Positions 14,959 through 23,211 of a stretch of DNA of 64,000 nucleotides are shown in pieces. Source of the stretch: Deltaproteobacteria bacterium. GTDB taxonomy: Bacteria; Myxococcota; Myxococcia; Myxococcales; SZAS-1. The number at the start of each line of letters is the position of its first letter. The stretch's first letter is position 1. The translations under genes and the position numbers were made by a program. The notes under the pieces are model-generated. The model was given only the letters and a program-made list of their open reading frames with translations, ran no database searches and was not told where the DNA came from. Where the stretch lies: NCBI GenBank assembly GCA_018266075.1, contig JAFEBB010000038.1, positions 1 to 64,000 on the forward strand, written 5' to 3'.

Positions 14959-14978
14959 TTAACGGAATCGTTAACTAG
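14959..14978. repeat. AT-rich palindromic 20-mer TTAACGGAATCGTTAACTAG at a convergent gene junction (copy 1 of 2)
   Basis: Seen directly. Inverted arms TTAACG/CGTTAA. It supplies the in-frame TAA just after the GNAT TGA and the CTA (TAG) stop of the minus-strand gene 14975..15415. It is 18/20 identical to 23192..23211. Confidence 0.8.
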
Positions 14979-15415
14979 AACTGGCCCTGCATCGAGCTCT
15001 TGCCGGCCACGAGCCCGATCGCCGAGAGCGCCGCGAGCCCGCAGATGATGAAGCCGGTGAGCGCCCAGCCCGCCTCGCCGCGGCTGTCGAGGCGCAGCCC
15101 CAGCTCGGCCCAGGCCACCGCGTCGATCGCCGCGATCGGAACCATGAGCGGCAAGAGCCGTGACTTCCGCCACGTGGACACGTGGTAGCCCACCCACGCC
15201 TGGGCCATGCCGTTCACCAGCCCGCCGACCGCCACGGCGGCCAGCACCGCGCCGCCGAGGCCCAGGTGCTGCAGCACCGGCAAGCTCGCGCCAATCGTCG
15301 GATCGAGCGCCTGCACCAGGAGGATGACGCCGACCGTCGCCCACACCGCTGCGCGCAGCAGCTGCAGCACGGCCGAGAGGGAGAGGAACTTCTGCTGGAG
15401 CGTCGGCGAGGCCAC
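14975..15415 (-). CDS. small integral membrane protein (about 4 TM), hypothetical
   Basis: Hydrophobic helices. Lies 3 nt downstream of the DAC-domain gene on the same strand. Confidence 0.5.
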   Translation of the reverse strand: MASPTLQQKFLSLSAVLQLLRAAVWATVGVILLVQALDPTIGASLPVLQHLGLGGAVLAAVAVGGLVNGMAQAWVGYHVSTWRKSRLLPLMVPIAAIDAVAWAELGLRLDSRGEAGWALTGFIICGLAALSAIGLVAGKSSMQGQF

Positions 15416-15417
15416 GG

Positions 15418-20434: not shown

Positions 20435-20654
20435 GGCCAGCCGCAAGCTGGAGCGCGGTCGCATCGGCACCTTCCCGGACAACGTCGCCTTTCGGGCAAG
20501 GTGGGCCCGCCCGCTCGCGGTGACAATCGCGGCCCGCTCGACCGTGCGCCCCGCGACGAAGCCAGCCAGCGGTCGAAGGCCCCACGGGCGCCGTGGACTC
20601 GCCGAGCGGAAGCGCCGTAGTGTCTCCGTCCTCGGCCGATTCGTCGTGTTCGTC
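20435..20654. promoter_or_regulatory. divergent intergenic region between the GT4–MVP operon and the beta-propeller gene
   Basis: 220 nt between divergent start codons. Presumed to carry promoters for both transcription units. No motif assigned. Confidence 0.35.
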
Positions 20655-23195
20655 ATGCGTCGCTTGCCCCGCAACCGCTCGCTCGCCTCGATCTGGCTCG
20701 CGCTCGCGCTCGCGCAGGTGCTGGGCTGCGGCGCGTGCCACCAGGTCACGAGCACCTCGGTGAACACCATCGGCAAGGACGGCGGCAAGCTCCACTCCGA
20801 CGACTGCGGCTTCACGCTCACCATCCCCGCGGGCGCGCTGCCCCAGGACGTGCCGTTCGTGCTGCAGACGGTGGCGAGCCCGAACCTGCCCAGCATCACC
20901 GGCCGCGTGCGCGTGTCGAAGGACTGCGGTGTGCAGCCCATCGTCCCTTTCGCGAAGCCGGCCACGGTCACGCTCGACTACGACCCTACCCAGGTGCCGA
21001 AGCAGGTCTCCGAGGGCGACGTCGACGTGCGCGTGGCGCCGAGCAGCGCCAAGGAAGTGCGCCTCCAGAACCTCTCCGTCGACACCAACGCGCACGTGGC
21101 CACCGCGACCACCACGGCGACCGGCGACTTCTTCGCCACCGCACCGCAGGGGCCGCAGCCCGCGGAGATCGATCTCACGCCCGCTTCAGCCGTGGCGCTC
21201 AAGCCGGGCCAGACGCAGCAGTTCACGGCCGTGGTGAAGGACGACACGGGCGAGCCCGACCCCACGCCGGTGACCTGGGCCGTGGACCTGCAGCGGGTGG
21301 CGACCATCGACTCGAACGGGCTGCTGACGGCGGTCGCGCCGGGCGTCGCGGTCGTCACGGCCGCGGCCGGCACCGTCACCGCGAGCGTGCAGGTGTACGT
21401 CATCTCGCAAGTGCCCAGCCCTTCGCAGTTCGACTGGGAGAACCCGCGACCGCAGGGCAACGACATCCACGGGCTGGGCTTCATCGATGGGCAGCTGCTC
21501 GTCGCGGCCAACAACGGCACGGTGGTGGCGCAGCTCGGCGACGGCGGCTTCGCGCGGCTCTCGAGCGGGCGGAGCCTGGCGCTCGCGGGCGCGGCTTCAG
21601 GCGGCGGTCGGCTCGGCGCCGCGGGGACGCTGGACGTCGTGCAGCAGAGCGTGGAGCTGATTCAGGGCGTGCTGGTGTCTCTGGAGGGCGACGCCGCGGA
21701 GGTGCAGGAGGTCGACCCGAGCAGCCTCTCGGCGCGCGCGGTGTACGGCGACGACGCGGGCGTGATCGCCGTGGGCAGCGGCAACGACTGCTACCTCCTG
21801 CGCAACGGCGATCTGCCCGACGCCGGTTGGGTGGGCGTGGAGACGCCGGTGTCCGAGGCGCTCATCGCCGTCGACGCGGATCCCGTGGGCGGCCGTCGCG
21901 TGGTGGGCGCGCGCGGCCAGGTCTATCGGCTGAATGAAACCGATTGGTTTCCAATCTGGGACACGCCGCTGGAGACGCTGCTCGCGCAGGCCACGATGGT
22001 GGGCCACGACGCGTATGCCGTCGACGGCGCGAACGGGCTGCACCACTTCGTCGAAGGCCAGGGCTGGCAGCCGGATGACACGCCGCCCGGCGTCGCGCTC
22101 GACAACGTGGGCCTGCTCGGACGACTCGGGACCACGGTCGCGCTCGCCGGCCAGGACACGACGCTCTTGCCACACCTCTGGCTGCGCGACGGCGCCACCT
22201 GGACCGAGGCGCCCGGCATCGACATCCACGACCAGCTCTACGCCGCCGCCAGCGACGGCACCACGAGCTGGGTCGCGGGCACGAACGGCGCGCTCTACAC
22301 CGTGGACGACGGCGGCGTGACGAGCGTTCGTACGGGCTCCGTCGACGACATCAGCGCGATCGCGGTGGGCCCGGACGGCTCGGCCTTCGCGGTCACCTCG
22401 GACGGCTGCGGCGACGCGCTCTGCACCTCGCAGCACCCGGAGCTTCTGGTGCGCGGCAGCGACGGCACCTGGACCGTGGCCGCGAACCTGCCGCCGTCGG
22501 ATCCGCTCCGCGCGGTGGCCGTGCGCTCCAGCGGCGACGTGTTCCTCGCGGGCGACAACGGCGTGGCCTGGCACTTCAACGGCAACTCCTTCGATCTCCT
22601 CAACACGCCCACCACGCTCAACATCCACGCGCTCAAGGTCTGCGGCGGCGACGTGTGGATGGTTGGCGACCAGGGCCTCATCGCCAAGTTCGACGGCGCC
22701 AGCAACTTCGTGGCCGAGGGCAGCGTGGGCGCGAACCTCTGGGCCATCGCCTGCCCGAGCGATCACGACATCTGGGTGGCAGGCGACTACGCGCTGCTCA
22801 ACTTCGACGGCCAGAACTGGAACCAGTCGGCGAGCACCGTGAACATGCAGCCCTGGCGCGCGCTCTACGTCTCCGACGAGGAGATCTGGGTGGCCGGCGA
22901 GACCGACTACCTGCTCCACGGCGATCGCGTGGGCAACACCTGGGACGCCGTGCAGGACCCCGCGGGCCTGCGCATGCACGGCGGCTACGGCCTCTGGGCC
23001 AGCGGCCCGGGCGACCTGTACCTGGTGGGCACGCAGCAGCGGCCGCGCCAGGGGCTCCTGCTGCGCAACGACGGCGCGGAGTGGTACGCGCTCGACCCAG
23101 GCACGGACCACGAGCTCTACGCAATCGACGGTGCGGGCGCCGGCGACTTCTTCATCGCCGGCAACGGCGGCGCCATCCTGCACTCGCACGATTAA
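20655..23195 (+). CDS. large secreted protein with bacterial Ig-like (Big_2) domain and beta-propeller-type repeats
   Basis: Signal peptide MRRLPRNRSLASIWLALALAQVLGCGAC. Big_2-like segment (VATIDSNGLLTAVAPGVAVVTAAAGTVTASVQVYV). Repeated W-x-x-G-D/N-x-G blades (DVWMVGDQGLI, DIWVAGDYALL, EIWVAGETDYL). Ends in the TAA of the second AT-rich 20-mer. Confidence 0.65.
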   Translation: MRRLPRNRSLASIWLALALAQVLGCGACHQVTSTSVNTIGKDGGKLHSDDCGFTLTIPAGALPQDVPFVLQTVASPNLPSITGRVRVSKDCGVQPIVPFAKPATVTLDYDPTQVPKQVSEGDVDVRVAPSSAKEVRLQNLSVDTNAHVATATTTATGDFFATAPQGPQPAEIDLTPASAVALKPGQTQQFTAVVKDDTGEPDPTPVTWAVDLQRVATIDSNGLLTAVAPGVAVVTAAAGTVTASVQVYVISQVPSPSQFDWENPRPQGNDIHGLGFIDGQLLVAANNGTVVAQLGDGGFARLSSGRSLALAGAASGGGRLGAAGTLDVVQQSVELIQGVLVSLEGDAAEVQEVDPSSLSARAVYGDDAGVIAVGSGNDCYLLRNGDLPDAGWVGVETPVSEALIAVDADPVGGRRVVGARGQVYRLNETDWFPIWDTPLETLLAQATMVGHDAYAVDGANGLHHFVEGQGWQPDDTPPGVALDNVGLLGRLGTTVALAGQDTTLLPHLWLRDGATWTEAPGIDIHDQLYAAASDGTTSWVAGTNGALYTVDDGGVTSVRTGSVDDISAIAVGPDGSAFAVTSDGCGDALCTSQHPELLVRGSDGTWTVAANLPPSDPLRAVAVRSSGDVFLAGDNGVAWHFNGNSFDLLNTPTTLNIHALKVCGGDVWMVGDQGLIAKFDGASNFVAEGSVGANLWAIACPSDHDIWVAGDYALLNFDGQNWNQSASTVNMQPWRALYVSDEEIWVAGETDYLLHGDRVGNTWDAVQDPAGLRMHGGYGLWASGPGDLYLVGTQQRPRQGLLLRNDGAEWYALDPGTDHELYAIDGAGAGDFFIAGNGGAILHSHD

Positions 23196-23211
23196 CGAAT
23201 TCGTTAACTAG
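23192..23211. repeat. AT-rich palindromic 20-mer TTAACGAATTCGTTAACTAG at a convergent gene junction (copy 2 of 2)
   Basis: Seen directly. Perfect 16-nt palindrome TTAACGAATTCGTTAA followed by CTAG. It supplies the TAA stop of 20655..23195(+) and the CTA (TAG) stop of 23208..25178(-). Confidence 0.8.

What the first reader, a model, noticed from the sequence alone, without database searches (positions are those of the whole stretch)
14959..23211. Two 18/20-identical AT-rich palindromic 20-mers bracket an 8.2 kb segment and supply stop codons to all four converging genes
TTAACGGAATCGTTAACTAG (14959..14978) and TTAACGAATTCGTTAACTAG (23192..23211) are near-identical, about 25% GC in a roughly 70% GC genome, and each sits exactly at a convergent gene junction. 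The plus-strand genes read TAA inside the motif; GNAT has TGA-GTT-TAA. The minus-strand genes terminate on the CTA of ...CTAG. The identity is far beyond chance. The motifs could be a family of bidirectional terminator/stop elements (REP-like), boundary marks of an inserted island that contains the MVP operon, or protein- or nuclease-recognition sites.
Basis: seen in the sequence. Interest (0 to 1): 0.7.

Follow-up and report, generated by a model that had tools for sequence, protein, structure and literature searches.

The report
Orphan repressor-type palindromes at gene ends
The two AT-rich 20-mers are real and belong to a set of three conserved 16-bp palindromes (TTAAC-N6-GTTAA) that look like binding sites for an ArsR-type repressor but lie at gene ends and inside a gene rather than at a promoter; they do not mark an inserted island.

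Summary
The conserved unit is a 16-bp palindrome, TTAAC-N6-GTTAA. A third copy lies inside a gene at 12107.

All three copies recur at the orthologous places in the closest relative (about 87% DNA identity). There the ten core bases never change (0/30), while the six spacer bases change often (7/12 at the two junction sites). At both junction sites the inner pair switches together, from CG..CG to CC..GG.

More distant syntenic relatives lack the motif. They keep the outer genes of the "8.2 kb segment" and vary only its interior, so the motifs are not island borders.

The stems are weak and AU-rich with no U-tract. Seven of the nine convergent junctions in the window lack the motif. So it is not a general terminator.

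The same palindrome, in both inner-pair versions, sits just upstream of ArsR + SRPBCC operons in at least eight phyla.

Best reading: these are orphan binding sites for an ArsR-type dimer encoded elsewhere in the genome. They may act as a roadblock or insulator, but that function is only inferred. Moderately interesting; binding is untested.

The parts
12107..12122 (.). Site W3: TTAACGTTCCGGTTAA, inside the TPR/PEGA gene (codons GTT AAC GTT CCG GTT AAG = V N V P V K)
   Evidence: Exact core match. It is kept at the orthologous place in L001 as TTAACATTCCGGTTAA. It uses three GTT codons within five codons, although GTT is only 3.8% of Val codons here. The outgroup L006 has CTG AAC CTG CCG GTG CCC AAG and no motif.
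14959..14978 (.). Site W1: TTAACG-GAAT-CGTTAA followed by CTAG. It nearly fills the 18-nt spacer between GNAT(+) and the 146-aa ORF(-).
   Evidence: The orthologue in L001/L131 is TTAACC-GACT-GGTTAA, with indels of 7 nt and 1 nt in the flanks.
23192..23211 (.). Site W2: TTAACGAATTCGTTAA, a perfect 16-bp palindrome, followed by CTAG. It spans the 12-nt spacer between the Big_2 gene(+) and the TPR gene(-).
   Evidence: The orthologue in L001/L138 is GATTAACC-GTTT-GGTTAATC. The outgroup L006 has TAG-ctcgagctgcct-TCA with no motif.
11944..12594 (+). TPR/PEGA-domain gene that hosts W3
   Evidence: Pfam PF13371, PF08308
14471..14956 (+). GNAT acetyltransferase, the last gene of a plus-strand gene string. 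Its TGA stop lies 3 nt before W1.
   Evidence: Pfam PF00583; sequence
14975..15415 (-). 146-aa predicted membrane protein whose stop is the CTA of CTAG. It is found only in the closest relatives.
20655..23195 (+). Big_2/BNR-like secreted protein (start approximate). Its TAA stop is inside W2; TAA is used by only 2 of 47 genes.
23208..25178 (-). TPR protein whose stop is the CTA of CTAG next to W2

Best explanation
The three TTAAC-N6-GTTAA palindromes are sequence-specific binding sites for a dimeric winged-helix repressor. The most likely candidate is a member of the ArsR/SmtB subfamily that is normally paired with SRPBCC/AHSA1 (COG3832) genes and is encoded elsewhere in this genome.

Shown:
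- The sites are non-random.
- Their ten core bases are under purifying selection, while the spacer is free to change.
- They arose only in the lineage of this genome and its closest relative.
- Their sequence and geometry are the same as the palindrome found directly upstream of ArsR+SRPBCC operons in many phyla.

Inferred:
- An ArsR-type protein binds them.
- The joint switch of the inner base pair at both junction sites (G..C in this genome, C..G in the relative) tracks a difference in the regulator's specificity.
- Because the sites lie in minimal convergent spacers and inside an operon rather than at promoters, the bound protein acts locally. It could block transcription in both directions or insulate neighbouring units where there is no room for a hairpin terminator. 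This last step is the weakest.
For: - Chance is excluded.
- Comparing this genome with L001: core 0/30 changes, spacer of the two junction sites 7/12 changes, third codon positions 21% changed.
- The half-site centres are 11 bp apart, about one helical turn, as expected for HTH or winged-helix dimers. This is read from the sequence plus general knowledge.
- W3 keeps the core through rare GTT codons but cannot form the hairpin. This points to recognition of DNA sequence rather than of an RNA structure.
- A GTDB-wide scan for the 20-mer found three hits in high-GC genomes (my estimate of chance expectation is about 0.07). All three lie directly upstream of ArsR+AHSA1 operons.
- Of 11 homologous ArsR+SRPBCC operons fetched from plasmid records, 9 carry xxAAC(C/G)-N4-(G/C)GTTxx within about 100 nt upstream of the ArsR start. 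S. meliloti and Fischerella have exact TTAAC-N6-GTTAA matches, and Ralstonia and Haladaptatus one-mismatch matches. S. meliloti has exactly TTAACC-N4-GGTTAA (the relative's type). The Actinomycetota and Planctomycetota MAGs have TTAACG-N4-CGTTAA (this genome's type).
- The loop bases follow orthology (GAAT/GACT, AATT/GTTT) while the inner pair follows lineage. This fits co-evolution with a trans-acting factor better than fresh insertions.
Against: - No ArsR or SRPBCC gene, and no promoter, lies near any site or anywhere in the 64 kb. The defining promoter context of an operator is therefore missing.
- Binding is untested.
- Other HTH proteins use similar half-sites, for example P. aeruginosa HigA with TTAAC GTTAA (PMC6987408).
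- Only two lineages carry the sites, so the conservation statistics rest on a single pairwise comparison.
- W3 does not follow the inner-pair rule.
- A control of 250 kb of Tsukamurella DNA has no orphan sites. Orphan sites are therefore not a usual companion of these regulators.
- The roadblock/insulator role has no direct support.
Confidence: 0.45

Rival explanations
1. The palindromes act as RNA (or single-stranded DNA) hairpins. These would be compact bidirectional terminators or 3'-end stabilisers squeezed into 12-18 nt convergent spacers.
For: - The hairpin appears in the predicted minimum-energy fold at all four junction sites (W1, W2 and their two L001 orthologues), on both strands. 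The z-score reaches -3.6 in L001.
- The inner pair stays complementary in all four junction sites despite G:C to C:G changes.
- In L001 the arms extend to 7-8 bp with site-specific bases.
- Both junction sites are exactly at 3' ends.
Against: - The stems are AU-rich with no U-tract, and the terminator scan does not call them.
- This genome uses GC-rich hairpins where there is room, for example GGGCC-TTC-GGCCC after the stop at 27580.
- Seven of nine convergent junctions lack the motif.
- W3 is intragenic and does not fold.
- A purely structural constraint does not explain why the same TTAAC/GTTAA letters are kept at every site.
- Symmetric changes are equally expected for a dimer-binding DNA palindrome, or from quasi-palindrome correction.
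Confidence: 0.15
2. The sites are copies or scars of a small mobile palindromic element. It could be REP/MITE-like, or a leftover operator of a mobile ArsR-COG3832 module, that spread in this lineage.
For: - The sites are lineage-specific.
- The copies within one genome share the inner-pair variant.
- There are indels next to W1.
- The relative has an unrelated ~85-nt AT-rich inverted-repeat insert in another convergent spacer.
- ArsR-COG3832 pairs are described as mobile, multi-copy modules (PMC2701414).
Against: - There is no net insertion at W2. The region between conserved anchors is 9 nt shorter than in L006, and both spacers are 12 nt.
- W3 is in frame and one codon shorter than in the outgroup.
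- The loops follow orthology, not lineage.
- No transposase or RAYT gene is in the window.
- There are no target-site duplications.
- No further copy of the 20-mer turned up in a Myxococcota genome in GTDB representatives.
Confidence: 0.1
3. The sites have no dedicated function. On this view they are AT-rich palindromes produced by facing stop codons (TAA...TTA, CTAG) in very short convergent spacers, and they are kept symmetric by template-switch (quasi-palindrome) mutation.
For: - Convergent stops make palindromes naturally. Examples are CCGTAG-CGC-CTACGG at 39510/39514, the shared CTAG stop in L006, and AGCTCGAGCT in the L006 spacer.
- TTAA and CTAG are the two self-complementary double-stop tetramers.
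Against: - The right half-site GTTAA never provides a stop codon.
- GNAT does not use the motif TAA.
- W3 has nothing to do with stops.
- The identical 10-base core at three places is far beyond chance.
- The core is unchanged between lineages while neighbouring bases change freely.
Confidence: 0.15
4. The sites are directly repeated recombination (att-like) sites that bound an excisable 8.2 kb island.
For: The two 20-mers are in direct orientation. The 5-6-5 layout resembles tyrosine-recombinase core sites (my own knowledge). The gene content between them varies among relatives.
Against: - The central six bases differ (GGAATC against GAATTC), which would block strand exchange.
- No recombinase gene lies inside.
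- The variable part is interior, between Big_2 and DAC.
- The genes just inside each motif are syntenic with the outside genes in relatives that lack the motif.
Confidence: 0.03

Closest known systems
Promoter palindromes (putative operators) of ArsR/SmtB-family regulators paired with SRPBCC/AHSA1 (COG3832) genes
   Same: The 16-bp architecture and the letters are identical: TTAAC(C/G)-N4-(G/C)GTTAA. Both inner-pair versions occur. The N4 is variable. S. meliloti pSymB has exactly the relative's version, and two high-GC MAGs have exactly this genome's version, including the CTAG extension.
   Different: Those sites lie between the -35 box and the start codon of the regulator's own operon, often as two adjacent copies. 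Here there is no arsR gene and no promoter. The sites are single and lie in convergent 3' spacers or inside a gene. The operator role of the promoter palindromes is itself inferred from position and conservation. I found no paper describing it.
Stoperators of cluster A mycobacteriophages (repressor sites in short intergenic gaps that stop elongating RNA polymerase; from my own knowledge)
   Same: They are repressor-type sites placed at gene ends and often overlapping stop codons, away from promoters. They are the conceptual model for the roadblock reading.
   Different: Stoperators are asymmetric 13-mers present in dozens of copies and oriented with transcription, in a phage genome that encodes the repressor. 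Here there are three symmetric sites in a chromosome, and the regulator is unknown.
REP / REPIN elements
   Same: They are short palindromes often found between convergent genes, and their sequence is lineage-specific.
   Different: REPs are usually longer, present in hundreds of copies, inserted rather than evolved in place, and linked to a RAYT transposase. None of this was seen here. One copy here is in frame within a gene.
HTH-antitoxin operators with similar half-sites (P. aeruginosa HigA: TTAAC GTTAA, PMC6987408)
   Same: They use the same TTAAC/GTTAA half-sites and are bound by an HTH dimer.
   Different: In HigA sites the half-sites abut with no N6 spacer, and the sites lie in promoters.

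Membership tests
Operator of an ArsR/SmtB (COG3832/SRPBCC-associated) regulator | 16-bp palindrome xxAAC(C/G)-N4-(G/C)GTTxx | tested here: met
   All three window sites and all three L001 sites fit. W1, W2 and their L001 orthologues match known promoter examples at all 12 specified positions.
Operator of an ArsR/SmtB (COG3832/SRPBCC-associated) regulator | Lies in the promoter region directly upstream of the arsR-type operon | tested here: not met
   The sites lie between stop codons of convergent genes or inside a TPR/PEGA gene. No sigma-70-like promoter was called in 11-29 kb. tblastn and Pfam find no ArsR or SRPBCC gene in the window or in related loci.
Operator of an ArsR/SmtB (COG3832/SRPBCC-associated) regulator | A cognate regulator is encoded in the same genome and binds the site | not testable with these tools
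   Only 64 kb of the MAG is available. The source contig (NCBI MAG, locus tag JST54_) could not be fetched. No binding assay is possible.
Intrinsic (Rho-independent) terminator | Stable GC-rich stem followed by a U-tract | tested here: not met
   The stems are 6-bp and AU-rich with 4-nt loops and no T run on either strand. The terminator scan did not report them.
Intrinsic (Rho-independent) terminator | Located just downstream of the stop codon of a transcription unit | tested here: inconclusive
   True for W1 and W2, on both strands. False for W3, which is 164 nt into a gene.
REP/REPIN/MITE-type dispersed repeat | Many dispersed copies per genome | tested here: inconclusive
   There are three copies in 64 kb, all within 11 kb. 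The whole genome was not available. A strict 20-mer scan of GTDB representatives found no Myxococcota hit.
REP/REPIN/MITE-type dispersed repeat | Presence is an insertion relative to empty orthologous sites | tested here: not met
   At W2 the spacer is 12 nt both with and without the motif, and the region is 9 nt shorter overall than in L006. W3 is in frame and one codon shorter.
att sites of an integrated island | Identical crossover region in both copies, and a recombinase gene within | tested here: not met
   The central hexamers are GGAATC and GAATTC. The interior genes are DAC, SDR, MVP-like, GT and Big_2, with no integrase.
att sites of an integrated island | The segment is present or absent as one unit among relatives | tested here: not met
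   Big_2 and DAC, the outermost conserved interior genes (the 146-aa ORF next to W1 is absent from L005/L006/L010), keep their outside neighbours in L005/L006/L010. Only the middle varies.

The most novel reading that the evidence does not exclude
A chromosomal repressor of the widespread but uncharacterised ArsR-COG3832 module family has been recruited in one myxobacterial lineage to bind 'orphan' palindromes. These are built by point mutation into minimal convergent spacers and into a tolerant coding stretch. There the bound dimer would serve as a ligand-switchable, bidirectional transcription roadblock or insulator, a chromosomal analogue of phage stoperators. Sites and regulator specificity would co-evolve (TTAACG to TTAACC).
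Probability: 0.12. Interest if true: 0.7.

Novelty: new variant of a known kind. Interest (0 to 1): 0.42.

Why it matters
If these are bound sites, a repressor family usually seen only at its own promoter can gain conserved chromosomal targets at gene 3' ends. That would be a protein-based way to separate convergent transcription units that are too close together for a hairpin terminator.

The work also yields a testable operator consensus, xxAAC(C/G)-N4-(G/C)GTTxx, for the very common but unstudied ArsR-SRPBCC gene pairs.

If the sites are not bound, the finding reduces to a small lineage-specific conserved DNA motif of unknown role.

Tried and rejected
Tried without useful result:
- MVP-like protein as a synteny anchor. 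Homologues at 68-76% identity sit in unrelated contexts.
- Patterns with 14-16 specified bases on whole collections. IUPAC codes do not count toward the minimum, and scans stop at 120 rows filled with AT-rich chance hits.
- Fetching the source contig via P0241. It is not on record.
- A metagenome scan with the Big_2 C-terminus. It gave only one more close relative, with the same allele as L001.
- Rfam. No family matched in the window.
- Literature search for the motif and for ArsR-SRPBCC operators. Nothing was found.

Considered and rejected:
- Synthetic linker or assembly artefact (EcoRI and HpaI sites in W2). Independent ENA and JGI assemblies carry orthologous but different versions.
- Sigma-70 promoter. 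The hexamer spacing is wrong and none was called.
- dif/Xer or parS. The sequence does not match, and there are no par genes in the window.
- Restriction sites. GTTAAC is not present at every half-site.
- A fourth AACC-N4-GGTT match at 21936. It is at chance level and driven by coding (E T D W F P I W).
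Full report
**Observation.** They differ at 2 of 20 positions, and none is expected in dinucleotide-preserving shuffles. I mapped the genes by codon-position GC, Pfam and the gene calls on related contigs.
- The first motif nearly fills the 18-nt gap between a GNAT gene (14471-14956, +) and a 146-aa membrane-protein ORF (14975-15415, -).
- The second motif spans the 12-nt gap between a Big_2/BNR protein gene (about 20655-23195, +) and a TPR gene (23208-25178, -).
- Three of the four stop codons lie in the 20-mers. 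GNAT stops on TGA just before the first one.
- GC content is 30-35%, not 25%.

**The real unit.** Relaxing the pattern to TTAAC-N6-GTTAA gives three hits with up to one mismatch, against 0.03 expected. They are the two junction sites (W1, W2) and W3 at 12107-12122 inside a TPR/PEGA gene.
- Six of the nine TTAA tetranucleotides in the 64 kb belong to these sites.
- W3 is encoded as GTT AAC GTT CCG GTT AAG. GTT is only 3.8% of valine codons in this window.
- TAA, used by the Big_2 gene inside W2, is the stop of only 2 of 47 genes.

**Relatives.** The organism is an uncultured member of the Myxococcota. One window protein is 100% identical to a protein of an NCBI MAG labelled 'Deltaproteobacteria bacterium', locus tag JST54_.
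- The closest relative is L001, from an ENA assembly. L131 and L138, from a JGI sample, carry the same allele. L001 is 87-88% identical in DNA and syntenic.
- L001 carries the motif at all three orthologous places.
- Between the two lineages the ten core bases show 0/30 changes. The N6 of the two junction sites shows 7/12 changes, and third codon positions show 21%.
- At both junction sites the inner pair changed together: TTAACG..CGTTAA here, TTAACC..GGTTAA in L001. The loops still follow orthology (GAAT/GACT and AATT/GTTT).
- More distant relatives lack the motif at every orthologous place. These are L132, L145, L147, L005/L006, L010 (DAC protein 91-74% identical) and L139 (Big_2 C-terminal region 60% identical).
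- In L006 the Big_2/TPR spacer is also 12 nt (TAG-ctcgagctgcct-TCA), and the W3 codons read CTG AAC CTG CCG GTG CCC AAG. The sites therefore arose without net insertion, in the common ancestor of two close lineages.

**Not an island.** In L005/L006 the order is TPR | Big_2, GT, GDE-like hydrolase, SDR, DAC | GNAT. In L010 Big_2 lies directly beside DAC. The genes just inside each motif keep their outside neighbours in genomes that lack the motif, and only the middle varies (MVP-like here). No recombinase gene lies inside. The central hexamers of the two copies differ.

**Not a general terminator.**
- The hairpins are 6-bp, AU-rich and lack a U-tract.
- The terminator scan does not report them.
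- The window has nine convergent junctions, and only two carry the motif, although others are just as tight: 3-nt and 6-nt spacers, and overlaps.
- Where there is room the genome uses a GC-rich hairpin, as after 27580.
- W3 is intragenic and does not fold.
- Rfam has no match.

**What it resembles.** I scanned GTDB species representatives for TTAACGNANTCGTTAACTAG and got five hits. Two are in AT-rich genomes and are consistent with chance. The other three are in 70-73% GC MAGs: two paralogous loci of one Actinomycetota MAG and one Planctomycetota MAG. I estimate about 0.07 such hits by chance.
- All three lie directly upstream of an operon encoding an ArsR-family winged-helix regulator and an AHSA1/SRPBCC protein. 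There the palindrome extends to TAGTTAACG-N4-CGTTAACTA.
- I then fetched 11 homologous ArsR+SRPBCC operons from plasmid records. Nine carry xxAAC(C/G)-N4-(G/C)GTTxx within about 100 nt upstream of the ArsR start. It often follows a TTGACA box and is often doubled.
- S. meliloti and Fischerella have exact TTAAC-N6-GTTAA matches. Ralstonia and Haladaptatus (an archaeon) have one-mismatch matches. Rhizobium, Gemmatirosa, Tsukamurella and Microbulbifer have two-mismatch variants. Burkholderia and Croceibacterium had no match within two mismatches.
- S. meliloti pSymB has exactly TTAACC-AGTA-GGTTAA.
- This gene pair is known as a mobile, multi-copy, toxin-antitoxin-like module whose ArsR lacks metal-binding motifs (PMC2701414). 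I found no paper describing its operator.
- Both inner-pair versions seen in the two myxobacterial lineages therefore exist as natural promoter palindromes of this regulator family.

**Interpretation.** Several features fit recognition of double-stranded DNA by a symmetric dimer. These are the fixed half-sites, the free spacer, the 11-bp distance between half-site centres, the survival of the core in a coding region through rare codons, and the lineage-wide switch of the inner pair. An ArsR-type protein encoded elsewhere is the specific candidate.

The defining promoter context is absent. No ArsR or SRPBCC gene occurs in the window or in the related loci, and no promoter is nearby. These would therefore be orphan sites. 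As a control, 250 kb of high-GC Tsukamurella DNA has no orphan sites (its ArsR-promoter sites lie outside that stretch). Three sites within 11 kb here is therefore unusual.

What a bound dimer would do at two convergent junctions and 164 nt into an operon gene is inference only. A bidirectional roadblock or insulator, in the manner of phage stoperators, is the most economical idea.

**Rivals.** An RNA hairpin role has some support. The inner pairs are complementary, and the arms extend to 7-8 bp in L001. It does not explain the fixed letters or W3. A REP- or MITE-like origin fits the lineage specificity and an unrelated ~85-nt AT-rich inverted-repeat insert seen in L001. The absence of net insertion and the orthologous loops argue against it. 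A pure by-product of facing stop codons cannot explain the right half-site or W3.

**Verdict.** This is a real, selected, lineage-specific DNA motif and most likely a set of protein-binding sites of a known sequence type in an unusual location. It is not an island boundary and not a generic terminator. The function is unproven.

Noticed in passing
L001:1030-1110 (orthologous spacer in window 27581-27824 lacks it): The relative has an ~85-nt AT-rich insert with long inverted repeats, including the perfect 14-bp palindrome AATTGAATTCAATT. It lies in the convergent spacer between a response-regulator gene and a sigma-54 activator gene. It may be a MITE-like element.
   Followed up: partly
window 17147-19294 (-): This is a bacterial major-vault-protein-like gene (MVP shoulder domain) with more than 1000 homologues in Myxococcota, Planctomycetota and Acidobacteriota MAGs. 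In the same slot relatives L005/L006 carry a GDE/MGH1-like glycoside hydrolase, and L010 carries nothing.
   Followed up: partly
L148, L149, L135-L137, L151-L157 (promoters of ArsR+SRPBCC operons): A shared upstream palindrome xxAAC(C/G)-N4-(G/C)GTTxx occurs in operons from at least eight phyla, including a haloarchaeon. It appears to be the undescribed operator of the ArsR-COG3832 module family.
   Followed up: partly
window 14975-15415 (-): This 146-aa predicted four-helix membrane protein lies downstream of the diadenylate cyclase. It is present only in the closest relatives (L001, L131, L132, L145) and has no Pfam family.
   Followed up: no
window 21936-21960: Overlapping palindromes GAAACC-GATT-GGTTTC and GATTGG-TTT-CCAATC lie inside the Big_2 gene. 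They are driven by the codons E T D W F P I W, and the match to the relaxed motif is at chance level.
   Followed up: yes
L131:3879-4319: The GNAT orthologue has an in-frame TAA (ggccagTAAgcg, against GAA in the window). It is either a pseudogene or an assembly error.
   Followed up: no
L006:10885-10888 and window 6925-6928: Convergent genes overlap by four bases and share a stop tetranucleotide read on both strands. It is CTAG in L006 (DAC/GNAT); the window tetramer was not read out. This shows how tight junctions are handled without the motif.
   Followed up: no
window 29238-31181 (-): A SelB selenocysteine elongation factor gene is present, so the organism probably makes selenoproteins.
   Followed up: no
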